The notes beneath the pieces were generated by a model. It did not search any database and was not told the origin of the DNA. It worked only from the letters and a program-made list of their open reading frames with translations. Below, in pieces: positions 1,817 through 57,652 of a stretch of DNA of 64,000 nt (within the stretch, counting starts at the first letter, position 1; each line of letters starts with the position of its first letter). A program made the position numbers and the translations under genes. Source of the stretch: Escherichia coli (GTDB lineage: Bacteria > Pseudomonadota > Gammaproteobacteria > Enterobacterales > Enterobacteriaceae). The stretch lies in NCBI RefSeq assembly GCF_003019035.1, contig NZ_CP027447.1. One strand, 5' to 3'.

Positions 1817-1830
1817 TTGAGCGAAGTCAA
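1817..1830. promoter_or_regulatory. FNR box (TTGAG-N4-GTCAA) centred about 42 bp upstream of the fnrS start, class II position
   Basis: Near-palindromic match to TTGAT-N4-ATCAA consensus immediately upstream of fnrS. Confidence 0.6.
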
Positions 1831-1865: not shown

Positions 1866-1987
1866 GCAGGTGAATGCAACGTCAAGCGATGGGCGTTGCG
1901 CTCCATATTGTCTTACTTCCTTTTTTGAATTACTGCATAGCACAATTGATTCGTACGACGCCGACTTTGATGAGTCGGCTTTTTTTT
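1866..1987 (+). ncRNA. fnrS: FnrS small RNA (FNR-activated, Hfq-dependent)
   Basis: Sequence GCAGGUGAAUGCAACGUCAAGCGAUGGGCGUUGCGCUCC... ending in GC-rich hairpin GCCGACUUUGAUGAGUCGGC plus U-run; matches recalled FnrS and its zntB-dbpA position. Confidence 0.85.
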
Positions 1988-2044
1988 GCCTGTTATTTAT
2001 CAGCGTCTACCCTTTAAGAGTCCACCCAATGACCGGAGGGAAAT

Positions 2045-2218
2045 ATGACGACACTTATTTATTTGCAAATTCCTGTCCCTGAACCGATTCCTGGCGATCC
2101 TGTTCCAGTGCCCGATCCGATCCCTCGCCCGCAACCCATGCCTGACCCACCACCCGATGAAGAACCGATTAAATTGTCGCATCGTGAGCGTAGATCTGCG
2201 AGGATACGCGCCTGCTAA
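2045..2218 (+). CDS. Candidate small protein, 57 aa, proline-rich (MTTLIYLQIPVPEPIPGDPVPVPDPIPRPQPMPDPPPDEEPIKLSHRERRSARIRAC)
   Basis: ATG preceded by GGAGG at 5 nt spacing; below the ORF-track length cutoff; lies between the fnrS terminator and the dbpA start. Confidence 0.35.
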   Translation: MTTLIYLQIPVPEPIPGDPVPVPDPIPRPQPMPDPPPDEEPIKLSHRERRSARIRAC

Positions 2219-3750: not shown

Positions 3751-4685
3751 TATTTCACTTCAACCACATTCAGTCGTAACTCATCCAACTGATTTTCATC
3801 TTCTTCAGGCTGCCAACCCGCCGGTTGTAGAGGGATCTCTTCGCGATCAAACGCCAGATCACCCCCGTTAACCACTTCAGAACCGTGGGTAATGCCTTTG
3901 AAATCGAACAGGTTGGTATCGCACAGATGCGACGGCACCACATTCTGCATCGCGCTGAACATCGTCTCGATACGCCCCGGATAACGTTTATCCCAGTCAC
4001 GCAACATGTCAGCAATCACCTGACGTTGCAGGTTAGGCTGTGAACCGCACAGGTTGCACGGAATAATCGGGAACGCTTTTGCATCGGCAAAGCGCTGAAT
4101 ATCTTTCTCGCGGCAGTAGGCCAGCGGACGAATAACGATATGTTTGCCATCATCGCTCATCAGTTTCGGAGGCATACCTTTCATCTTGCCGCCGTAGAAC
4201 ATATTTAAGAACAGCGTTTGCAGGATATCGTCACGATGGTGACCCAACGCGATCTTCGTCGCCCCCAGTTCCGTTGCGGTGCGATAAAGGATACCGCGAC
4301 GAAGACGAGAACACAGTGAGCAAGTGGTTTTGCCCTCCGGAATCTTCTCTTTCACGATACCGTAAGTGTTCTCTTCCACAATCTTGTACTCAACGCCCAG
4401 CTTTTCAAGATACTCGGGCAGAACGTGTTCCGGGAAGCCCGGTTGTTTTTGATCGAGGTTAACAGCCACCAGCGAAAAATTGATTGGCGCGCTTTGCTGC
4501 AAATTGCGCAGAATTTCCAGCATGGTATAGCTGTCTTTACCCCCGGAGAGGCAAACCATGATGCGATCGCCTTCTTCAATCATATTGAAGTCAGCAATGG
4601 CTTCGCCCACGTTACGACGCAGACGTTTTTGTAATTTGTTCAGGTTGTATTGTTCTTTCTTACTAATTTCTTGATTTTGCGACAT
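3750..4685 (-). CDS. ttcA: tRNA 2-thiocytidine(32) synthetase TtcA, 311 aa
   Basis: ORF track; PP-loop SGGKDS and CxxC pairs; N-terminus [10 protein letters not shown]. Confidence 0.93.
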
Positions 4686-4828
4686 TTAAAAGCGACTCAA
4701 TTCGTTATATGGCATCAGAAGAGTATGCGTCATGCCGGAACGCCCAGCATAAGAAATCTGATATAAAAACTGTGGCGTGTATGGTACGGATTAGAGGGGA
4801 AAATGTCAGCACATTTGCGAAATGAATC

Positions 4829-4857
4829 AAAAAGCCCGCAGCAATGTGCGGGCGTTA
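4829..4857 (-). terminator. Rho-independent terminator of uspF
   Basis: Hairpin GCCCGCA...TGCGGGC followed by a T-run on the minus strand, directly after the uspF stop. Confidence 0.6.
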
Positions 4858-4860
4858 GTG

Positions 4861-5376
<516 letters not shown>

Positions 5377-5435: not shown

Positions 5436-6554
5436 TTAGAACTGATAAACCAGACCTAAAGCGACAATATCATCGGTAGAGATGCCGTTGGCAGCGTAGA
5501 AGCTGTCATCTTCATCCAACAGGTTGATTTTATAGTCAACGTAGGTGGACATATTTTTGTTGAAATAGTAAGTCGCGCCAACATCGGCGTATTTAACCAG
5601 ATCTTTATCACCGTCGGTACCGACCAAATCCTTGCCTTTAGACATCAGGAAAGAGACTGCCGGACGCAGCCCAAAATCGAACTGATACTGCGCAGTAACT
5701 TCAAAGTTCTGGGTTTTGTTGGCAATCGTATTTGTTGAATCACCGTAAGGTGTCATGTTACGCGTTTCAGAATACATGGTCGCCAGGTAGATATTGTTAG
5801 CATCGTATTTTGCCCCGGCAGTCCAGGCGTCAGCCTTATCGCCTTTTGCGGTAGAGAATTCAGCCTGCTGGTTAGTGCGATCGGAGCTGGTATAGGCGGC
5901 ACCAAAACTCATGCCCATACCTAAGTCGTAGGTAGTGGAGATGCCAAAACCGTCGCCATTGGCGTTCTTAATGTTTCGATCACCACCGTTTGCGGTACCT
6001 TCTTGCTCATGGGTGACCTGGTTTTCATTCGCGCCCTGGTACTGTAACGCAAAATTCAGACCATCAACCAGACCGAAGAAATCAGTATTACGATAGGTTG
6101 CTACGCCATTGGCTCGACCGGTCATATAGTTATCGGCTTTGGTATAAGAGTCACCACCGAATTCCGGTAGCATATCGGTCCAGCCTTCGATGTCGTACAT
6201 TACGCCATAATTACGACCATAGTCGAATGAACCCAGGTCACCAAATTTCAGACCGGCAAAAGCAAGACGAGTCCAGGAATCACCTTTATCACCTTCAGAG
6301 CCATTAGCCTGCACGTTATATTCCCACTGGCCATACCCAACCAGTTGATCCGTGATTTGCGTTTCACCCTTAAAACCAAAACGCACGTAAGTTTGATCAC
6401 CATCACTATTGGTATTATCAGAAAAATAATGCAGGCCATCAACTTTGCCATACAGATCTAATTTGTTGCCGTCTTTATTATAAACTTCGGCTGCATGTGC
6501 AGCACCTGCGGCGAGCAGGGCAGGAATTAAAAGTGCCAGTACTTTGCTTTTCAT
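5436..6554 (-). CDS. ompN: Outer membrane porin OmpN (OmpC/OmpF family), 372 aa
   Basis: ORF track; signal peptide [22 protein letters not shown]-terminal ...LGLVYQF. Confidence 0.92.
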
Positions 6555-6781
6555 TGAATAAATCCTTTAGTTATTTTATTTGCCTTTTATCCCCATTTCG
6601 GGGAGTGAAAACATCCTAAAGGAGAAGTTCAGTTAGCCGATAAATATCATTTGTTACGCCTTAAGTAAAACCTTAATCAAATAATTCCTCTGAAATGATA
6701 ATAAGTCTGGTGAATGTATCGAAGATAATACATACAAAATAAAAATTATACTTTTAATTTGCTATACGTTATTCTTCGCGG

Positions 6782-6890
6782 GTTATATGCCTTTATTGTC
6801 ACAGATTTTATTTTCTGTTGGGCCATTGCATTGCCACTGATTTTCCAACATATAAAAAGACAAGCCCGAACAGTCGTCCGGGCTTTTTTT
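6782..6890 (+). ncRNA. micC: MicC small RNA (represses ompC)
   Basis: GUUAUAUGCCUUUAUUGUCACAGAUUUUAUUUUCUGUUGGGCCAUUGC... ending in hairpin CCCGAACAGUCGUCCGGGC plus U8; matches recalled MicC and its ompN-ydbK position. Confidence 0.85.
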
Positions 6891-6919
6891 TAGAATTGGA
6901 TAATCCTTATCCAGAGCAT

Positions 6920-9900
6920 TTAATCGGTGTTGCTTTTTTCCGCTTTTCCGGCCATTTGTGCCAGGAAGTCATAGCGTTTTTGCAAATCAGCTGCAGCATC
7001 TTTCCATAACTGTTCTGCCACTTCTGGCTGCTGCGAATTCAGACGACGGAAACGCTGCTCGTGAAGTAACGTTTCTTCCAGTGCTTCTGACGGCGGGCGT
7101 GAATCCAGCGCCAGCGGCAGTTTGCCTTCATCGGCACGACGAGGATCGAAGCGATATAGCGGCCAGAAGCCGGTAGCAGTGAGTTGGCGCATCTGGTCGT
7201 GGCTGAGAGCCAGATCGTAACCATGCTCTTCACACGGGCTATAAGCGATGATCAGCGATGGCCCCGGATACGCTTCCGCTTCCTGAATCGCTTTCACCGT
7301 CTGGTTCAGCTGTGCGCCGAGAGAAATCTGCGCCACATAAACATGACCGTACATCATCATACTGACGCCAAGATCTTTACGCGCTTTACGTTTGCCGTGC
7401 TCGCCAAACTTAGTTACTGCACCCAGCGGTGTCGCTTTCGACGCCTGGCCACCGGTGTTGGAATAGCATTGCGTATCCAGCACCAGAATGTTGACGTTTT
7501 CCGTCAAACTCAATACATGATCCAGACCACCAAAGCCGATATCGTAAGCCCAGCCGTCACCACCAATCAGCCAGATTGATTTTTCCACCAGAGCATCTGC
7601 GTCACGTAGCAGTTCATGTGCTTCGGCAACATCGTTGAGTTGCTGGCGTAAAGCTGCAACCTGTTCACGACGAATCTCTGGCGTAGCGTCTGATTTCAAC
7701 GCAGTCAGTAATTCCGCCGGGATTTTATCGGCAAATTGATCCAGCAGACGCAGCACGCGGACACGGTGTTGATCGACCGTCAGGCGGAAACCCAGGCCAA
7801 ATTCGGCGTTATCTTCAAACAGCGAGTTCGCCCATGCCGGCCCGCGACCGTTGGCATCGGTAGTATACGGTGTAGAGGGCAGGTTACCGCCATAAATTGA
7901 AGAACATCCAGTGGCGTTAGCGATCAACATCCGGTCGCCATACAGCTGAGTCAGCAATTTAATATACGGCGTCTCGCCACAACCGGAGCAAGCACCGGAA
8001 TATTCAAACAGCGGTGTAATCAGCTGTGATGTACGAATATCAATACGTTCCAGTTTGCTACGGTCGATTTCTGGCAGGTTGAGGAAGAAATCGTAATTGA
8101 TTTTCTCTTCTTCGACATGTTCCAGCCGCGACATCATATTGATGGCTTTAATCTCTGGATTCTGACGGTCTTTCGCCGGGCAAACTTCGACGCACAGGTT
8201 ACAACCGGTGCAATCTTCCGGAGCCACCTGCAAGACATATTTCTGCCCGCGCATATCACGCGATTTCACATCCAGCGAATGCAGGCTGGCAGGGGCGTTT
8301 TCCATCGCTTCAGGCGGTACCACTTTTGCGCGAATAGCTGAGTGTGGGCAAGCAGCGACGCAGTGGTTACATTGGGTACAGAGTTCCTCTTTCCAGATGG
8401 GGATCTCTTCGGCGATATTGCGTTTTTCCCAGCGCGTGGTGCCCATCGGCCAGGTGCCGTCTGGCGGCAGCGCCGAAACGGGGAGGGCATCACCAAGCCC
8501 GGCGAGCATCGCCGCGGTTACGGTTTTCACGAAATCAGGGGCGGCATCGGAAACCACTGGCGGTCGATTGGCGCTGTGCGGATTTACTGGTTGCAGCGGA
8601 ACTTCTTCTACGGATTCACGTGCCAGCGCCAGAGCCTGCCAGTTGCGTTCCACCAGATCCTGACCTTTGCTACTGTAACTTTTGGCAATCGCACCCTGCA
8701 ATTCTGCGAGGGCGCTATCGCCAGGCAGAATTTGCGTAAGATGGAAAAAAGCCATCTGCATGACGGTATTAATACGGGCCGCCAGGCCACATTCGCGGGC
8801 GATTTTCGCCGCGTTAATCACATAGAAGCGCGCTTTTTTCTGGTTTAACACGGCCTGAACTTCCTGCGGCAAGCGCGACCATACTTCATCTGCGCTGTAC
8901 GGCGTGTTGAGCAGGAAAATGCCGCCAGGTTTTAAACGTTCAGCCATCTGATATTTATCGATAAACTGCAACTGGTGGCAGCCAACAAAATCAGCCTGGG
9001 AAATCAGATAAGCGGAACGAATCGGCTGTTCGCTCACGCGAAGGTGAGAAACCGTCAGGCCGCCCGCCTTTTTGGAGTCGTAAACAAAATAGCCCTGTGC
9101 GTACCACGGCGTGGAATTACCGATAATCTTGATATTGTTTTTGGTCGCGGAAACGCTGCCATCACTACCAAGGCCATAAAACAAGGCTTCAAGTTTCGCC
9201 GAGTTTGGCAGGGTGTTTTCCGGCAACGGCAGTGACAGATTGGTCACATCATCGTAAATACCAACCGTAAAGCGCGCTTTCGGTTTAGCCGCGTTGAGCT
9301 CGGCAAATACCGCCAGTACACAGTCCGGGCCAAATTCTTTGGATGAAAGACCATAGCGCCCACCAATGACACGGGGCAGGGTTTCGCGCTCGCCATTATT
9401 AAAGGCTTCTGCCAGTGCGGTCATCACATCCAGGTACAGGGGTTCCGCTTGCGCACCTGGCTCTTTGGTGCGATCCAGCACCGCCACTGTCCGAACAGAG
9501 TCCGGCAACGCTTGCAGTAAGTGTTTGGCGGAGAAGGGGCGGTACAGGCGAACTTTCAGCACGCCGACTTTTTCGCCACGGGTTAGCAATTCATCAACCA
9601 CTTCTTCACAGGTGCCAATGGCTGAGCCCATCAGGATAATCACCCGTTCCGCTTGCGGATGCCCATAATACTCAAACGGCTGATACTGACGACCTGTCGC
9701 GGCAGCGAAATCATTCATCGCCTGTTCAACATGGTCATAGACCGCGTTGTACCAGGGGTTGGTGGCTTCGCGAGACTGGAAATAAGTGTCAGGATTGGCG
9801 GACGTACCGCGGATCACCGGATGTTCCGGGTTGAGCGCCCGGGCGCGATGAGCATCAATTTCGGCCTGCGGCATGAGATCAAGAATAGTGTCATCGGCCA

Positions 9901-10444
9901 GCGGGACAATTTTATTGATTTCGTGGGACGTGCGGAAACCATCAAAGAAATGAATAAATGGCACGCGGCTTTTCAGCGTCGCGATGTGCGAAATGAGAGC
10001 AAAGTCTTGCGCTTCCTGGACGTTTGCCGCACACAACATCGCGCAACCCGTCTGGCGCACCGCCATAACGTCGGAATGATCGCCAAAAATAGAGAGTGCA
10101 TGTGTGGCAACGGTACGTGCCGCTACATGCAGGACAAACGGTGTGAGTTCGCCTGCCAGTTTGTACAGCGTCGGGATCATCAGCAGCAAACCCTGCGATG
10201 ACGTAAACGATGTTGAAAGGGCACCCGTCTGCAAAGCGCCATGCACGGTAGCGATAGCACCCGCTTCCGACTGCATTTCAACCACGCGTGGTGTGTCTCC
10301 CCAAACGTTCTTCAAGCCGTTTCCGGCCCAGGCATCAGCCTGTTCTGCCATCGTGGAACTGGGGGTAATAGGGTAGATGGCGATAACTTCACTGGTGCGA
10401 AACGCCACCGAAGCAACCGCGCCATTACCGTCAATAGTAATCAT
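6920..10444 (-). CDS. ydbK: Pyruvate:flavodoxin/ferredoxin oxidoreductase (PFOR, NifJ-like), 1174 aa
   Basis: ORF track; two ferredoxin-type CxxCxxCxxxCP motifs and TPP-binding GDG region. Confidence 0.93.
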   Translation of the reverse strand: MITIDGNGAVASVAFRTSEVIAIYPITPSSTMAEQADAWAGNGLKNVWGDTPRVVEMQSEAGAIATVHGALQTGALSTSFTSSQGLLLMIPTLYKLAGELTPFVLHVAARTVATHALSIFGDHSDVMAVRQTGCAMLCAANVQEAQDFALISHIATLKSRVPFIHFFDGFRTSHEINKIVPLADDTILDLMPQAEIDAHRARALNPEHPVIRGTSANPDTYFQSREATNPWYNAVYDHVEQAMNDFAAATGRQYQPFEYYGHPQAERVIILMGSAIGTCEEVVDELLTRGEKVGVLKVRLYRPFSAKHLLQALPDSVRTVAVLDRTKEPGAQAEPLYLDVMTALAEAFNNGERETLPRVIGGRYGLSSKEFGPDCVLAVFAELNAAKPKARFTVGIYDDVTNLSLPLPENTLPNSAKLEALFYGLGSDGSVSATKNNIKIIGNSTPWYAQGYFVYDSKKAGGLTVSHLRVSEQPIRSAYLISQADFVGCHQLQFIDKYQMAERLKPGGIFLLNTPYSADEVWSRLPQEVQAVLNQKKARFYVINAAKIARECGLAARINTVMQMAFFHLTQILPGDSALAELQGAIAKSYSSKGQDLVERNWQALALARESVEEVPLQPVNPHSANRPPVVSDAAPDFVKTVTAAMLAGLGDALPVSALPPDGTWPMGTTRWEKRNIAEEIPIWKEELCTQCNHCVAACPHSAIRAKVVPPEAMENAPASLHSLDVKSRDMRGQKYVLQVAPEDCTGCNLCVEVCPAKDRQNPEIKAINMMSRLEHVEEEKINYDFFLNLPEIDRSKLERIDIRTSQLITPLFEYSGACSGCGETPYIKLLTQLYGDRMLIANATGCSSIYGGNLPSTPYTTDANGRGPAWANSLFEDNAEFGLGFRLTVDQHRVRVLRLLDQFADKIPAELLTALKSDATPEIRREQVAALRQQLNDVAEAHELLRDADALVEKSIWLIGGDGWAYDIGFGGLDHVLSLTENVNILVLDTQCYSNTGGQASKATPLGAVTKFGEHGKRKARKDLGVSMMMYGHVYVAQISLGAQLNQTVKAIQEAEAYPGPSLIIAYSPCEEHGYDLALSHDQMRQLTATGFWPLYRFDPRRADEGKLPLALDSRPPSEALEETLLHEQRFRRLNSQQPEVAEQLWKDAAADLQKRYDFLAQMAGKAEKSNTD

Positions 10445-27403: not shown

Positions 27404-30467
<3,064 letters not shown>

Positions 30468-37977: not shown

Positions 37978-38979
37978 TCAGAGTTTAGCGAATTTTTCGA
38001 GGGTGCGAATGAGCTGTGTGACGAAGCCATATTCGTTATCGTACCAGGCGACCGTTTTCACCAGTTGTAAATCGCCCACGGCGGTAATTTCCGTTTGCGT
38101 GGCATCAAACACCGAACCGAAATGGCTGCCAATGATATCGGAAGAGACTATTTCTTCATCGGTATAACCAAATGACTCGTTATTGGTGGTTGCTTGTTTA
38201 AGTGCGTTATTCACCTCTTCGGCAGTCACTTTTTTTCCGAGAATGGACACCAGCTCAGTGACCGAACCTGTTTTCACCGGCACGCGTTGCGCATGACCTT
38301 TCAGTTTGCCGCTCAGTTCCGGGATCACCAGACCAATGGCTTTTGCCGCACCTGTAGTGTGGGGAATGATATTTTCTGCCGCTGCACGTGAAGCGCGTAG
38401 ATCTTTACCTCGCGGACCATCCACCAGTGACTGAGTGCCGGTATAGGCATGAATGGTCGTCATCGTGCCGACTTCTATTCCGAAACTGTCGTGCAAGGCT
38501 TTGGCCATCGGTGCAAGACAGTTAGTGGTGCATGACGCCACGGAAACAATGGTGTCGTTGCCATCCAGTGTGTCGTCATTGACGTTATAAACGATGGTTT
38601 TCATTTCACCGGCAGGGGCGGAAATCAACACCTTCTTCGCACCAGCATCAAGGTGCGCCTGCGATTTCTCGGCGGAGGTATAAAAGCCAGTACATTCGAC
38701 AATGATTTCTGCGCCTTTCGCTTTCCATGGAATATTTTTAGCCTCTTTTTCGGCGTAAACCGCGATACTTTTTCCATCAACGATAAGTGAATCTTCCGTA
38801 AAATCAACGCTCCAGGGGAACGGTCCGTAGTTTGAATCATGTTTCAACAGGTAGGCGAGAATTTTTGGGGAAGTGAGATCATTAATAGCAACAATGTCTA
38901 TGTTGCTTTTGACTTCAAGTAATCGACGCAACACCAGTCGACCGATACGACCAAAACCGTTAATACCAACTTTACTCAT
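37978..38979 (-). CDS. gapC: Glyceraldehyde-3-phosphate dehydrogenase paralogue, intact 333-aa reading frame
   Basis: ORF track; NAD-binding NGFGRIGR and catalytic-site SCTTNCLAP present; RBS AGGAGA upstream. Confidence 0.9.
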
Positions 38980-39167: not shown

Positions 39168-39698
39168 ATGGAAAGTAAATATTCAAGGTTACAAATCGGC
39201 ATTCACTGGCTGGTCTTTTTGCTGGTTATCGCAGCGTATTGCGCAATGGAGTTTCGTGGTTTTTTCCCACGTGGCGATAGGCCGCTTATCAACATGATTC
39301 ATGTTTCCTGTGGCATCTCAATTCTCGTGCTGATGGTTGTTCGTCTTTTGTTAAGGCTTAAATACCCAACTCCGCCGATTGTACCTAAACCAAAACCGAT
39401 GATGACGGGACTGGCGCATTTGGGACATTTGGTGATCTATCTCCTGTTTATTGCGCTGCCAGTGATTGGTTTGGTGATGATGTATAACCGGGGCAACCCG
39501 TGGTCTGCGTTTGGTATGACAATGCCTTATGCAGCAGAGGCCAATTTCGAACGGGTTGATAGCTTAAAGTGGTGGCATGAGACGCTGGCGAATCTGGGAT
39601 ATTTTGTCATCGGGTTGCACGCTGCGGCTGCACTGGCACACCACTATTTCTGGAAGGACAACACACTTCTACGCATGATGCCGCGTAAACGTTCCTGA
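39168..39698 (+). CDS. cybB: Cytochrome b561, 176 aa
   Basis: ORF track frame; start at MESKYSRLQIGIHWLVFLLV; four-TM haem protein pattern. Confidence 0.9.
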   Translation: MESKYSRLQIGIHWLVFLLVIAAYCAMEFRGFFPRGDRPLINMIHVSCGISILVLMVVRLLLRLKYPTPPIVPKPKPMMTGLAHLGHLVIYLLFIALPVIGLVMMYNRGNPWSAFGMTMPYAAEANFERVDSLKWWHETLANLGYFVIGLHAAAALAHHYFWKDNTLLRMMPRKRS

Positions 39699-39708
39699 AG
39701 GATCTTTA

Positions 39709-39772
39709 AAGAAAACGCCTGTACTAAAACCGACCCGCGGTACAGGCGAAGAGTACGGGCCTACATCGGAAG
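39709..39772 (-). ncRNA. rydC: RydC small RNA (about 64 nt)
   Basis: Minus strand reads CUUCCGAUGUAGGCCCGUACUCUUCGCCUGUACCGCGGGUCGGUUUUAGUACAGGCGUUUUCUU; matches recalled RydC and its position just downstream of cybB. Confidence 0.65.
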
Positions 39773-39942
39773 CGCCTATTATATTTATTTGTATGACAAA
39801 TAAAACCATAATCCTTGTCCATATGTCCATCTGGCTTATCTTTAATCAATTCACACGATCTTTGATCTCATCAACAGTATCAAAATAAACCAGCGTATAA
39901 CGTTCAAATCGAACATAAGATTCGATAAACCATGGAGGTTAT

Positions 39943-40116
39943 ATGAAAAAACTGGCACTTATCTTGGTTATAGGAGCGCTTGTTTCCTTTTATGCCGATG
40001 CCGGGCGCAAACCCTGTTCTGGTTCGAAAGGGGGGATCTCACACTGTACGGCAGGCGGCAAATTTGTCTGTAATGATGGTTCTATTAGTGCATCGAAAAA
40101 AACATGCACTAACTGA
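39943..40116 (+). CDS. ydcA: Small secreted Cys-rich protein YdcA, 57 aa
   Basis: ATG with GGAGG upstream; MKKLALILVIGALVSFYADAGRKPCSGSKGGISHCTAGGKFVCNDGSISASKKTCTN; below ORF-track cutoff. Confidence 0.8.
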   Translation: MKKLALILVIGALVSFYADAGRKPCSGSKGGISHCTAGGKFVCNDGSISASKKTCTN

Positions 40117-40187: not shown

Positions 40188-40395
<208 letters not shown>

Positions 40396-40669
40396 TCGTT
40401 GGCCTCGGTTGATAGAAATATCGGTCGGGGCCTTCGTCTTTCTGATTCCCGGTTAGCCTGAAAACAGAAAGTCTCAGGCACCCGTGAGCATCCTATGTGG
40501 TTTCCTTAGGGACGAAAATAATCACCTGACGAAATTGCGTGCTGTTTTCCAGAATTTTTCGTCATTCGGGTTAGCCGGTTTAGCCATTCGTTACTCTCTT
40601 CATTCCAATAGCATTAATTTTCTCTGCAATAATTGTTGTAAAAATGTGACGCAAAGAGGTTTTTGGTCA

Positions 40670-51400: not shown

Positions 51401-51427
51401 CGCGCCATCGTTAGATGGCGCTTTTTA
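51401..51427 (+). terminator. Rho-independent terminator after ydcL
   Basis: GCGCCATC-GTTA-GATGGCGC followed by TTTTT. Confidence 0.7.
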
Positions 51428-51689
51428 TCCGGTGCGCCGTAAAACCCCGTCCTTCAGGGCGGGGATATAAGGCGCGGTTTTGCACCTGACCAGGTGTTTG
51501 CTGTTGTTCAATGTATTGGCGGATGACGGATATTGGCGCACCTCCGCAGCTACTGGCAAAATAGCCAGGACTCCACAAAACGCCTTTGTAGTAATACCTG
51601 ACTGCAATATCTGGTCGATCTCGTCGCAGTAACCTACCCGATACGCCTTTGAGGCTGTTTACCAGACTGGATATCGCCAGTTTGGGAGG

Positions 51690-51917
51690 TTAGTTAATTA
51701 ACAAATGGACGTGATCTGGTTCGCCATCCATTTCAACCAGTTCAGCTTCAAAATCAGCACATACATTTGAAAAGTAAGTGCGTAGTTTTTCTGTCGCGTC
51801 ATGGTCAAAAATCTGGCGTCGGTATCTGGTGACAAAGACCAGATGAACATGCATCAGGAAAACACAATGCCTTCCACGCCGGATATCGGTTTCTTTTTTC
51901 ACAGACCAAAGTATCAT
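51690..51917 (-). pseudogene. insP: IS200-type HUH transposase TnpA, truncated to 75 aa
   Basis: MILWSVKKETDIRRGRHCVFLMHVHLVFVTRYRRQ... has the HxH (HVH) motif but stops at about half normal length, before where the catalytic Tyr normally lies. Confidence 0.7.
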
Positions 51918-51924
51918 TTGACCT

Positions 51925-53133
51925 GTGAAACGATTACAGGCATTTAAATTCCAGTTAAGACCAGGTGGTCAACAGGAGTGTGAAATGAGGCGCTTCGCAG
52001 GCGCATGTCGTTTCGTTTTCAATCGTGCTCTGGCACGTCAGAATGAGAATCATGAGGCCGGTAATAAATACATCCCTTACGGGAAAATGGCTTCCTGGCT
52101 GGTTGAGTGGAAAAATGCCACTGAAACGCAATGGCTTAAAGATTCTCCCTCACAGCCATTGCAACAGTCACTGAAAGACCTTGAGCGGGCTTACAAAAAC
52201 TTCTTCCGGAAGCGGGCTGCTTTTCCCCGATTCAAAAAGCGGGGACAGAATGATGCATTCCGCTACCCGCAGGGCGTTAAGCTCGATCAGGAAAACAGCC
52301 GTATTTTTCTGCCGAAACTGGGCTGGATGCGCTACCGGAATAGCCGTCAGGTCACGGGTGTTGTGAAAAATGTCACTGTCAGCCAGTCCTGCGGTAAGTG
52401 GTACATCAGTATTCAGACAGAAAGTGAAGTATCCACTCCGGCTCACCCTTCAGCATCAATGGTCGGGCTGGATGCTGGCGTGGCTAAACTCGCCACGCTG
52501 TCAGATGGCACAGTCTTTGAGCCTGTAAACAGTTTTCAGAAAAACCAGAAGACGCTGGCGAGACTTCAGCGACAGTTAAGCCGCAAGGTCAAATTCAGCA
52601 ACAACTGGCAGAAGCAGAAACGCAAAATACAGCGACTGCATTCCTGTATCGCAAATATCCGCAGGGACTACCTTCACAAAGTCACAACGGCCGTCAGCAA
52701 AAACCACGCAATGATAGTCATTGAGGATTTGAAGGTCAGCAACATGTCAAAGTCAGCAGCGGGTACGGTCAGCCAGCCGGGGCGCAATGTCCGGGCAAAA
52801 TCAGGTTTAAACCGTTCGATACTGGATCAGGGCTGGTATGAAATGCGCCGCCAGCTTGAGTACAAGCAGCTCTGGCGTGGCGGTCAGGTGCTTGCTGTTC
52901 CGCCAGCGTATACAAGCCAGCGTTGCGCGTACTGTGGTCATACAGCGAAAGAGAACCGCCTGTCACAAAGTAAATTCAGATGCCAGGTATGTGGATATAC
53001 AGCGAACGCCGATGTAAATGGCGCTCGTAACATTTTAGCGGCGGGGCACGCCGTTCTTGCCTGTGGAGAGATGGTGCAGTCAGGCCGCCCGTTGAAGCAG
53101 GAACCCACCGAAATGATTCAGGCGACAGCCTGA
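51925..53133 (+). CDS. insQ: TnpB (OrfB) of IS200/IS605 family, 402-aa frame from GTG
   Basis: ORF track [35 protein letters not shown]...; C-terminal zinc-finger CxxC...CxxC (CAYCGH...[18 protein letters not shown]). Confidence 0.88.
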
Positions 53134-57332: not shown

Positions 57333-57652
57333 CCCGCCACCTTTTTCTAACCTTTTGCCGCTATGATGCCAATCGTTTCTTGAGGTTATTATTCAGTTTT
57401 GCAAATTAGCGCAAAGAAATTCTGGAATCTTCCTTCCTGATTTTGCATTGCATTCTGCCGTTGCGGCGATTTAGTGCTATTTTCGAGCAAATTACACACG
57501 GAGGTAAAAAAATCGACGCCGTCCAGCTCGCGGCTAAGGCGCTTGGCAAAGAGTTATCACTGGTGATGGTTTAATTACAGTTAACGAAAAGTTGTCATTT
57601 TTAACAACTGATATAGACTGCCGAATCATCTGCACATAATTACGATTCGATA

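What the first reader, a model, noticed from the sequence alone, without database searches (positions are those of the whole stretch)
1866..1987. Three conserved sRNAs sit in gaps where the ORF track suggests proteins or nothing
fnrS (with its FNR box) exactly underlies the spurious 70-aa ORF at 1870-2082; micC lies between ompN and ydbK; rydC lies on the minus strand between cybB and ydcA (39709-39772). Each has the expected terminator hairpin and U-run. They are known elements, but their presence confirms that the regulatory layer of this region is intact despite the island differences. These calls are by recalled sequence, not a search.
Basis: partly seen in the sequence, partly recalled or inferred. 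Interest (0 to 1): 0.2.

Follow-up and report, generated by a model that had tools for sequence, protein, structure and literature searches.

The report
Three known E. coli small RNAs
The window carries intact copies of three well-studied Escherichia coli regulatory small RNAs (FnrS, MicC and RydC) at their usual chromosomal positions, so the finding is correct but ordinary.

Summary
Confirmed, and already known. Rfam covariance models hit at or above their gathering scores at the stated places: FnrS 1866-1983 (+, 134.8 bits), MicC 6779-6899 (+, 125.3 bits) and RydC 39709-39772 (-, 83.1 bits).

The window is E. coli, 99.99% identical to strain SCU-301. Gene order matches K-12: zntB-fnrS-ynaL-dbpA, ompN-micC-ydbK and cybB-rydC-ydcA.

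- **fnrS** is 122/122 identical to K-12.
- **micC** differs from K-12 only by one fewer T in its tail.
- **rydC** has three substitutions. Two turn A-U pairs of pseudoknot stem 1 into G.U pairs.

The 70-aa ORF at 1870-2082 exists but is not a gene. Across 118 Enterobacterales fnrS loci it has a median of 34 codons, shows no codon periodicity, and 38 of 99 homologues carry frameshifting indels. In the same loci an FNR-type box sits at a fixed -49..-36 and the RNA stems covary.

Target sites taken from the near-identical SCU-301 genome remain complementary: MicC with ompC, RydC with cfa and, less distinctly, FnrS with sodB.

Small corrections to the finding:
- The ORF runs 95 nt past the sRNA.
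- RydC's terminator is stem 2 of its pseudoknot.
- The FNR box alone is not statistically unusual.

Interest is low.

The parts
1817..1830 (+). FNR binding site TTGAGCGAAGTCAA of the fnrS promoter, centred at -42.5
   Evidence: Found and identical to K-12. An xTGAx-N4-xTCAA box sits at the same -49..-36 position in all but 3 of 118 Enterobacterales loci, where it lies 1 nt off. Myers et al. 2013 list the fnrS FNR site at -42.5 with a ChIP-seq peak (PMC3688515).
1853..1858 (+). Probable -10 element CAATAT of the fnrS promoter (inferred)
   Evidence: Read from the sequence. GCAATATC is the commonest octamer at -14..-7 in the homologous loci. The sigma-70 consensus scan did not call it, as expected for an activator-dependent class II promoter.
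1866..1987 (+). fnrS gene, 122 nt, FNR-activated Hfq-type small RNA
   Evidence: Rfam RF01796 scores 134.8 bits. It is 122/122 identical to K-12 b4699 and is present at 99% identity or more in 5389 of 5426 complete E. coli genomes. The consensus fold has compensatory changes in 8 of 25 pairs across 100 unique homologues.
1960..1987 (+). FnrS intrinsic terminator: 8-bp stem, 4-nt loop and U8 tail
   Evidence: Found by the terminator scan and in the fold. The stem covaries, for example GC 45 / AU 44 / GU 9 at one pair.
1870..2082 (+). Mechanical 70-aa GTG ORF over fnrS; not a gene
   Evidence: Listed and not annotated in RefSeq. Across 118 loci the same frame has a median of 34 codons and a minimum of 12, and only 16 reach 70 codons. 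Column entropy by codon position is 0.34/0.27/0.32, and 38 of 99 homologues have indels that are not multiples of 3. Transcription ends at the terminator at 1987.
6782..6891 (+). micC gene, 110 nt here, small RNA repressor of ompC
   Evidence: Rfam RF00121 scores 125.3 bits over 6779-6899. It is identical to K-12 b4427 except for T8 instead of T9 in the tail. It lies between the ompN-locus porin (5436-6554, -) and nifJ/ydbK (6920-10444, -).
6782..6803 (+). MicC 5' target-pairing region (nt 1-22)
   Evidence: Duplex prediction with the ompC leader of SCU-301: nt 1-21 pair with -46..-15 at -26.5 kcal/mol, and 0 of 500 shuffled targets do as well.
6862..6891 (+). MicC terminator hairpin and U8 tail, apparently bidirectional with nifJ/ydbK
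   Evidence: Seen in the fold. The scan reports the hairpin as a minus-strand terminator about 35 nt after the nifJ stop codon.
39708..39772 (-). rydC gene, 65 nt, Hfq-binding pseudoknot small RNA (activator of cfa)
   Evidence: Rfam RF00505 scores 83.1 bits over 39709-39772. It aligns to K-12 b4597 with three substitutions, A13G, U20C and A35G. It is convergent with cybB (stop at 39698), and ydcA lies at 39943-40116.
39762..39772 (-). RydC 5' seed (nt 1-11), unchanged from K-12
   Evidence: Unchanged in the alignment. RydC nt 3-13 pair with the SCU-301 cfa leader at -109..-99 as 11 contiguous pairs, -16.8 kcal/mol, and 3 of 500 shuffles do as well.
39732..39761 (-). RydC pseudoknot stem 1 (nt 12-18 with 35-41), carrying G13.U40 and U18.G35 in this allele
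   Evidence: Evaluated: -10.2 kcal/mol against -10.5 for K-12. The positions of helix 1 and of the conserved U23/U24 and U46/U47 steps follow PMC4337610.
39708..39748 (-). RydC pseudoknot stem 2 (nt 25-33 with 49-57), which doubles as the terminator stem, plus the UUUUCUUU tail
   Evidence: Nine Watson-Crick pairs at -13.8 kcal/mol, identical to K-12.
39778..39783 (-). rydC -10 box TATAAT
   Evidence: Read from the sequence. A perfect -10 box with no clear -35 is reported in PMC11340327.

Best explanation
These are the orthologues of three characterised E. coli trans-acting, Hfq-dependent small RNAs, sitting at their ancestral loci in a strain nearly identical to E. coli SCU-301.

- **FnrS.** It is transcribed from a class II FNR-dependent promoter when oxygen is scarce. 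Through its single-stranded U/C-rich stretch (around nt 41-63) and its 5' end, it pairs with the translation-initiation regions of mRNAs for aerobic or oxidative functions such as sodB. It also pairs with yieP.
- **MicC.** It is transcribed divergently from ompN. Its first ~22 nt pair with the ompC leader and block OmpC synthesis.
- **RydC.** It is a 65-nt pseudoknot whose free 5' seed pairs far upstream in the long cfa mRNA and raises cyclopropane fatty acid synthase. Its transcription is repressed by YieP, so FnrS indirectly activates RydC.

**Shown here:** sequence and structure membership, synteny, promoter and terminator elements, non-coding status, and complementarity to target sites in the near-identical SCU-301 genome.

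**Taken from the literature or inferred:** expression conditions, Hfq dependence and regulatory outcome.
For: **Family membership.** All three Rfam models score well above their gathering scores over their full length.

**Match to K-12.** Each aligns base for base with the curated K-12 ncRNA gene in the same neighbourhood.

**Near-universal in E. coli complete genomes.**
- fnrS: 5392 of 5426.
- rydC: 5406 of 5426.
- micC: 4910 of 5426.

**FnrS across Enterobacterales.**
- The FnrS 5' motif was found in 120 genomes of the order, next to zntB in 117.
- An FNR-type box sits at -49..-36 in all but 3 of the 118 usable loci, where it lies 1 nt off, and the RNA length is held at 116-125 nt.
- 8 of 25 consensus pairs show compensatory changes.
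- There is no coding signal.

**FNR site.** It lies at -42.5, matching the position and ChIP peak in PMC3688515.

**Mutationally defined FnrS pairing bases** (G4/G5, C47-U49, U57-U59, U61; PMC8595263 and PMC11340327) are all unchanged.

**RydC.** It keeps both pseudoknot stems, the U23/U24 and U46/U47 steps and the seed.

**Targets in the near-identical SCU-301 genome.**
- MicC with ompC: -26.5 kcal/mol, 0 of 500 shuffles as good.
- RydC with cfa at -109..-99: -16.8 kcal/mol, 3 of 500.
- FnrS with sodB at -19..+3: -12.3 kcal/mol, 30 of 500.
Against: - No expression data are available. Transcription, Hfq binding and regulation were not observed for this strain.
- The RefSeq (PGAP) annotation of the nearest genome lists none of the three. 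This reflects the pipeline, not absence.
- Single-sequence folding z-scores are modest: -1.7, -2.2 and -1.3.
- The FNR motif alone is not rarer than chance.
- The FnrS-sodB duplex is only moderately better than shuffles.
- The RydC copy carries two G.U pairs in stem 1, and their effect on stability is untested.
Confidence: 0.97

Rival explanations
1. The 70-aa ORF at 1870-2082, or the 47-aa ATG ORF at 1874-2017, encodes a real small protein. The locus would then be a protein gene or a dual-function RNA.
For: The ORF is open in this window and in K-12, because the sequence is identical up to 2034. tblastn finds translated similarity in 115 loci.
Against: - The translated similarity only mirrors nucleotide conservation of the sRNA. 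In distant genera it stops after about 40 residues, at the terminator.
- Frame length is not conserved: median 34 codons, minimum 12.
- Substitutions show no third-position excess, and 38 of 99 homologues have frameshifting indels.
- The start codon lies at +5 of the transcript, with no leader or Shine-Dalgarno sequence.
- A strong terminator ends the transcript at codon 39.
- The ORF is not annotated in K-12 or in the SCU-301 RefSeq record.
Confidence: 0.02
2. The sequences are present, but one or more are functionally decayed in this lineage. An example would be RydC destabilised by its two G.U pairs, making them relics rather than working regulators.
For: - RydC differs from K-12 at 3 of 65 positions, two of them in helix 1. 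Helix 1 integrity is needed for stability in vivo (PMC4337610).
- The exact allele occurs in only 55 of 5406 genomes.
- micC has a substitution about 7 nt upstream of its start.
Against: - Both RydC stem changes keep pairing as G.U, and the computed stem energy is almost unchanged: -10.2 against -10.5 kcal/mol.
- The seed, the UU steps, stem 2, the tail and the TATAAT box are intact.
- The allele is shared by 55 genomes rather than being a private lesion.
- fnrS and micC are identical to working K-12 genes across the mature RNA.
- The target sites remain complementary.
Confidence: 0.04

Closest known systems
FnrS (Rfam RF01796; E. coli K-12 fnrS b4699; Durand & Storz 2010, Boysen et al. 2010)
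   Same: - 122/122 nt identical to K-12.
- Same zntB-fnrS-ynaL-dbpA context.
- Same FNR box at -42.5.
- Same terminator and same mutationally defined pairing bases.
   Different: Nothing differs in the RNA. There are a few substitutions in the upstream spacer, including position -1 (T to C), and one downstream of the terminator.
MicC (Rfam RF00121; K-12 micC b4427)
   Same: - Identical 5' pairing region and body.
- Same divergent arrangement with ompN and convergent arrangement with ydbK.
- Strong complementarity to the ompC leader of the near-identical SCU-301 genome.
   Different: - The U tail is one residue shorter (8 against 9).
- There is one substitution about 7 nt upstream of the start.
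- The neighbouring OmpN protein is only 82% identical to K-12 OmpN.
RydC (Rfam RF00505; K-12 rydC b4597; pseudoknot solved with Hfq, PMC4337610)
   Same: - 65 nt, with the same 5' seed.
- Two-stem pseudoknot, U23/U24 and U46/U47 steps, and U-rich tail.
- TATAAT -10 box and cybB/ydcA context.
- Seed pairs with cfa at -109..-99.
   Different: This is a minority allele with A13G, U20C and A35G. Two A-U pairs of stem 1 become G.U, and the G13 end of the cfa duplex becomes G.U. The allele is exact in only 55 of 5406 complete E. coli genomes.

Membership tests
FnrS (RF01796) | Covariance-model score at or above the curated gathering score over the full model | tested here: met
   134.8 bits against 60, model positions 1-119 of 119, E = 4e-24.
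FnrS (RF01796) | FNR binding site at a class II position upstream of the start | tested here: met
   TTGAGCGAAGTCAA at 1817-1830, centred at -42.5. The box is conserved at -49..-36 in all but 3 of 118 loci. The same position is reported in PMC3688515.
FnrS (RF01796) | Location downstream of zntB (ydaN) | tested here: met
   zntB lies at 787-1770. zntB is adjacent to fnrS in 117 of 120 Enterobacterales loci.
FnrS (RF01796) | 5' stem-loop, single-stranded pairing stretch and Rho-independent terminator with a U tail | tested here: met
   Seen in the fold and the scan and in the consensus structure with compensatory changes. The pairing bases are identical to K-12.
FnrS (RF01796) | Anaerobic, FNR-dependent expression and Hfq dependence | not testable with these tools
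   This needs a Northern blot or RNA-seq with and without oxygen, in fnr and hfq mutants.
MicC (RF00121) | Covariance-model score at or above the gathering score | tested here: met
   125.3 bits against 90, model positions 1-123 of 123.
MicC (RF00121) | Location between ompN and ydbK, divergent from ompN | tested here: met
   The porin at 5436-6554 (-) is 82% identical to K-12 OmpN and 66% to the SCU-301 OmpC. nifJ/ydbK lies at 6920-10444 (-).
MicC (RF00121) | The 5' ~22 nt are complementary to the ompC mRNA leader | tested here: met
   MicC nt 1-21 pair with SCU-301 ompC at -46..-15, -26.5 kcal/mol, 0 of 500 shuffles as good.
MicC (RF00121) | Hfq-dependent repression of OmpC | not testable with these tools
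   This needs reporter or porin-profile experiments.
RydC (RF00505) | Covariance-model score at or above the gathering score | tested here: met
   83.1 bits against 48, model positions 1-64 of 64.
RydC (RF00505) | H-type pseudoknot (helix 1 nt 12-18/35-41, helix 2 nt 25-33/49-57) with a free 5' seed | tested here: met
   All 16 pairs form. Two are G.U in this allele. Stem energies are -10.2 and -13.8 kcal/mol. The layout follows PMC4337610.
RydC (RF00505) | Conserved U-U steps (U23/U24 and U46/U47) and a 3' U-rich tail for Hfq contacts | tested here: met
   All are present in the window sequence. Their role is described in PMC4337610.
RydC (RF00505) | Seed complementarity to the long cfa 5' UTR | tested here: met
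   RydC nt 3-13 pair with SCU-301 cfa at -109..-99, -16.8 kcal/mol, 3 of 500 shuffles as good.
RydC (RF00505) | Location between cybB and ydcA, on the opposite strand | tested here: met
RydC (RF00505) | YieP-repressed transcription and Hfq-dependent stability | not testable with these tools
   Known for K-12 and Salmonella (PMC11340327). Testing it here needs experiments on this allele.

The most novel reading that the evidence does not exclude
The window's minority rydC allele might behave differently from the K-12 allele. It has G13/C20/G35, which puts two G.U pairs in pseudoknot helix 1 and a G.U at the end of the cfa duplex. Its promoter also carries a perfect FadR/GntR-type inverted repeat, TTTGT-CAT-ACAAA, between the -35 and -10 positions, which is imperfect in K-12. 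The allele could therefore differ in RNA half-life or in repression by YieP. That would give natural variation in control of cyclopropane fatty acid synthesis among E. coli lineages.
Probability: 0.08. Interest if true: 0.25.

Novelty: already known. Interest (0 to 1): 0.06.

Why it matters
It matters little beyond annotation hygiene. None of the three small RNAs is annotated in the RefSeq record of the nearest genome, and almost none of the about 5,400 complete E. coli genomes that carry them has a feature under the match. An ORF-based reading of such records therefore shows either a false 70-aa protein or an empty gap where a regulator sits.

The check also shows two things about this lineage, which lacks the Rac prophage and the paa cluster:
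- The small RNAs themselves are kept.
- Their target sites in ompC and cfa, and less distinctly in sodB, remain complementary.

Two of the three RNAs (FnrS and RydC) also belong to one published circuit through YieP.

Tried and rejected
1. **Protein-coding reading of the 1870-2082 ORF: rejected.** The frame length is not conserved, there is no codon periodicity, and many homologues have frameshifting indels. The tblastn hits only reflect RNA-level conservation.

2. **FNR box as stand-alone evidence: rejected.** Motifs with two mismatches are common in the window, 61 against about 38 expected. Position and cross-genus conservation were used instead.

3. **Sigma-70 consensus scan for the three promoters: uninformative.** It found nothing for any of the three. 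I do not assign a micC promoter.

4. **Simple terminator scan: incomplete.** It missed MicC on the plus strand because of an A.C mismatch, and it missed RydC because of the 15-nt loop of the pseudoknot. Both were settled by folding and by explicit evaluation of the stems.

5. **The inverted repeat TTTGTCATACAAA in the rydC promoter as the YieP operator: not supported.** The K-12 copy is imperfect, although YieP represses rydC there. No equivalent motif lies upstream of K-12 yieP or yohJ. A shared 8-mer with yohJ is within chance expectation.

6. **RydC pairing with the yejA leader: not better than shuffles**.

7. **Window equals SCU-301: not exactly.** There are 3 SNPs and one 1-nt deletion over 64 kb.

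Full report
**Observation**

A whole-window Rfam 15 scan at curated gathering thresholds returned four hits.
- frnS/FnrS at 1866-1983 (+), 134.8 bits (gathering score 60).
- MicC at 6779-6899 (+), 125.3 bits (gathering score 90).
- RydC at 39709-39772 (-), 83.1 bits (gathering score 48).

Each covers its full model, with E-values from 1e-14 to 4e-24. The fourth hit, sok at 40332-40483 (-), is not part of the finding.

The 70-aa GTG ORF at 1870-2082 is real as a mechanical ORF. It covers fnrS from base 5 to the end and then runs 95 nt further, into the start of ynaL (2045-2218).

micC is overlapped by ORFs of 44 and 63 aa. rydC is overlapped only by ORFs of 41 and 53 aa.

**Source and context**

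The first 8 kb are 100% identical to E. coli SCU-301 (NZ_CP051751.1). The next-best genomes are 98.7% identical. Over the whole window there are three SNPs and one 1-nt deletion relative to that record.

Gene order matches K-12:
- dgcM, ynaN, zntB, [fnrS], ynaL, dbpA, ttcA.
- uspF, ompN-type porin, [micC], ydbK/nifJ.
- gapC, cybB, [rydC], ydcA, yncP, hokB/mokB/sokB, trg.

Flanking proteins are 95-100% identical to K-12, except the porin.

The Rac prophage is missing, so ttcA and uspF are adjacent. The feaRB-tynA-paa cluster is also missing.

The PGAP annotation of SCU-301 lists none of the three small RNAs. In the E. coli searches every listed row showed 'none' as the annotated feature under the match.

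**Sequence identity with the curated genes**

- fnrS is 122/122 identical to K-12 b4699. The few differences lie in the upstream spacer and beyond the terminator.
- micC is identical to b4427 except for eight T instead of nine in the tail. I place it at 6782-6891, because the Rfam model starts three bases before the K-12 5' end.
- rydC differs from b4597 at three positions: A13G, U20C and A35G.

Population frequencies among 5426 complete E. coli genomes:
- fnrS is in 5392, of which 5389 are at 99% identity or more.
- rydC is in 5406, but the exact window allele is in only 55.
- micC is in 4910.

**Is fnrS an RNA gene or the 70-aa ORF?**

A pattern built from the conserved FnrS 5' stem-loop found 120 loci in one-genome-per-species contigs. 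They span Enterobacterales: Escherichia, Salmonella, Citrobacter, Klebsiella, Enterobacter, Pantoea, Erwinia, Serratia, Yersinia, Pectobacterium, Dickeya, Edwardsiella, Hafnia, Photorhabdus and Arsenophonus. zntB lies next to the motif in 117 of them.

In the 118 usable loci:
- An FNR-type box (xTGAx-N4-xTCAA) sits at -49..-36 in all but three, where it lies 1 nt off.
- In 116 of them the distance from +1 to the end of the terminator T-run is 116-125 nt.
- The reading frame that starts at +5 has a median of 34 codons and a minimum of 12. It reaches 70 codons in only 16 loci.

In an alignment of 100 unique sequences:
- Column variability shows no three-base periodicity: 0.34, 0.27 and 0.32 at codon positions 1-3.
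- 38 of 99 homologues have net indels that are not multiples of three before the terminator.
- RNAalifold recovers the 5' stem-loop, a small central hairpin and the terminator. It finds 25 pairs, 8 with compensatory double changes. One terminator pair reads GC 45 / AU 44 / GU 9.

The locus is therefore an RNA gene, and the ORF is spurious.

**Promoter and terminator elements**

*FnrS.* The box TTGAGCGAAGTCAA at 1817-1830 is centred at -42.5. Myers et al. list the same position for fnrS, together with an FNR ChIP-seq peak (PMC3688515). On its own the motif is not rarer than chance in this window. The terminator is an 8-bp stem followed by U8.

*MicC.* The terminator is a 10-pair stem with one A.C mismatch, followed by U8. 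The scan reads the same hairpin as a minus-strand terminator about 35 nt after the nifJ stop codon, so it is probably bidirectional.

*RydC.* The RNA has a perfect TATAAT box (39778-39783, -) and no clear -35, as published (PMC11340327). Its terminator stem is helix 2 of the pseudoknot, followed by UUUUCUUU.

**RydC structure in this allele**

I used the layout of the RydC-Hfq crystal-structure paper (PMC4337610). In that layout G37 and G39 lie in helix 1, and U23/U24 and U46/U47 are the conserved steps.
- Helix 1 is nt 12-18 with 35-41. Helix 2 is nt 25-33 with 49-57.
- In the window A13G gives G13.U40 and A35G gives U18.G35. U20C lies in loop 1.
- All 16 pairs form. Helix energies are -10.2 and -13.8 kcal/mol, against -10.5 and -13.8 for K-12.
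- Two other E. coli alleles I read also carry only transition changes that keep pairing: A13G alone, and C27U.

**Mechanism, and whether the partners are still there**

From the literature:
- FnrS is FNR-activated and represses many mRNAs (PMC3688515, PMC8595263). It also represses yieP translation.
- YieP represses rydC, so FnrS indirectly activates RydC and cfa (PMC11340327).
- RydC presents a 5' seed from a pseudoknot bound to Hfq and activates cfa (PMC4337610).
- MicC represses ompC and is co-regulated with the divergent ompN (PMC5745476).

I fetched the target genes from the SCU-301 genome and predicted duplexes:
- MicC nt 1-21 with ompC -46..-15: -26.5 kcal/mol, 0 of 500 shuffles as good.
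- RydC nt 3-13 with cfa -109..-99: 11 contiguous pairs, -16.8 kcal/mol, 3 of 500.
- FnrS nt 41-63 with sodB -19..+3: -12.3 kcal/mol, 30 of 500.
- FnrS with K-12 yieP -19..+3: -17.0 kcal/mol, 28 of 500.

The FnrS bases defined by mutation (G4/G5, C47-U49, U57-U59, U61) are unchanged. Expression and Hfq dependence remain inferred.

**Comparison with the known, and verdict**

Every testable defining feature of the three Rfam families was met. Only the experimental features could not be tested. These are ordinary orthologues of FnrS, MicC and RydC. The finding is correct, with small corrections: the extent of the ORF, the nature of the RydC terminator, the weak stand-alone value of the FNR box, and the micC coordinates.

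Novelty is 'already known' and interest is low.

The only mildly unusual item is the minority RydC allele, together with a perfect inverted repeat in its promoter (TTTGTCATACAAA, 39788-39800, -). I tested the idea that this repeat is the YieP operator and found no support.

Noticed in passing
window 40188-40483: A complete hokB/mokB/sokB type I toxin-antitoxin locus lies next to ydcA. hokB is at 40188-40337 (-), with a protein 49/49 identical to K-12. mokB is at 40228-40395 (-). sokB is at 40385-40441 (+), 57/57 identical to K-12. The Rfam 'sok' hit (40332-40483, 109 bits) is on the minus strand, which is the hok mRNA strand and is antisense to the K-12-annotated SokB.
   Followed up: partly
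window 19029-19036, inside 16316-22278 (+): The window has a run of six G where SCU-301 has seven. This splits the ydbA-type autotransporter (one 5964-nt gene in SCU-301) into ORFs at 16316-19162 and 19102-22278. It could be a homopolymer sequencing error, a frameshift pseudogene or phase variation. Together with three SNPs (28421, 44038, 59113), it shows that the window is not exactly the SCU-301 record.
   Followed up: partly
window 5436-6554 (-): The porin at the ompN locus is only 82% identical to K-12 OmpN, with 11 gaps, although the adjacent intergenic DNA is about 99.5% identical. It is 66% identical to the SCU-301 OmpC, yet PGAP names it 'ompC'. This is a divergent OmpN allele with a misleading annotation name.
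   Followed up: partly
window 39788-39800 (-): A perfect inverted repeat, TTTGT-CAT-ACAAA, lies between the -35 and -10 positions of the rydC promoter. It matches the FadR/GntR-type consensus TNGTNNNACNA. K-12 has TTTAT in the left arm, while three other E. coli alleles I read have the G. No matching motif lies upstream of K-12 yieP or yohJ, so a link to the YieP repressor is unsupported.
   Followed up: partly
window 39708-39772 (-): The RydC allele here (G13, C20, G35) is exact in only 55 of 5406 complete E. coli genomes. Most genomes differ from it at 1-3 positions. All the stem differences I read among alleles are transitions that keep pairing as G.U.
   Followed up: partly
micC, window 6782-6891 (population observation): Megablast finds micC in 4910 of 5426 complete E. 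coli genomes, so about 9.5% lack it or carry a disrupted copy. One hit covers only 47% of the gene. fnrS and rydC are missing from fewer than 1% of genomes.
   Followed up: no
window 4685-4861: ttcA and uspF are adjacent, so the 23-kb Rac prophage that K-12 carries at this site is absent. Likewise ydbL is followed directly by the autotransporter, so the feaRB-tynA-paa cluster is absent.
   Followed up: partly
window 37978-38979 (-) and 29175-30467 (+): gapC is annotated as an intact glyceraldehyde-3-phosphate dehydrogenase gene in SCU-301, whereas it is a pseudogene in K-12. ynbD carries an internal stop in SCU-301.
   Followed up: no
window about 51411-53133 and about 57497-57574: Two remnants are annotated in the SCU-301 record. 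An IS200/IS605 element lies between ydcO and ydcL, with a tnpA pseudogene carrying an internal stop and an intact insQ/tnpB RNA-guided nuclease gene. A 78-nt remnant of a hicB antitoxin gene lies next to yncJ.
   Followed up: no
window 2045-2218 (+): ynaL encodes a 57-aa proline-rich small protein. It starts 58 nt after the fnrS terminator and is 57/57 identical to K-12. Among the 120 fnrS loci, tblastn finds it in only 15 (such as Escherichia, Citrobacter and Salmonella), although the flanks held for each locus vary in length. Whether it is ever expressed by read-through from the FNR-dependent promoter is unknown.
   Followed up: partly
window 6862-6885: The micC terminator hairpin also reads as an intrinsic terminator on the minus strand, about 35 nt after the nifJ/ydbK stop codon. 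One hairpin probably ends both convergent transcripts.
   Followed up: no
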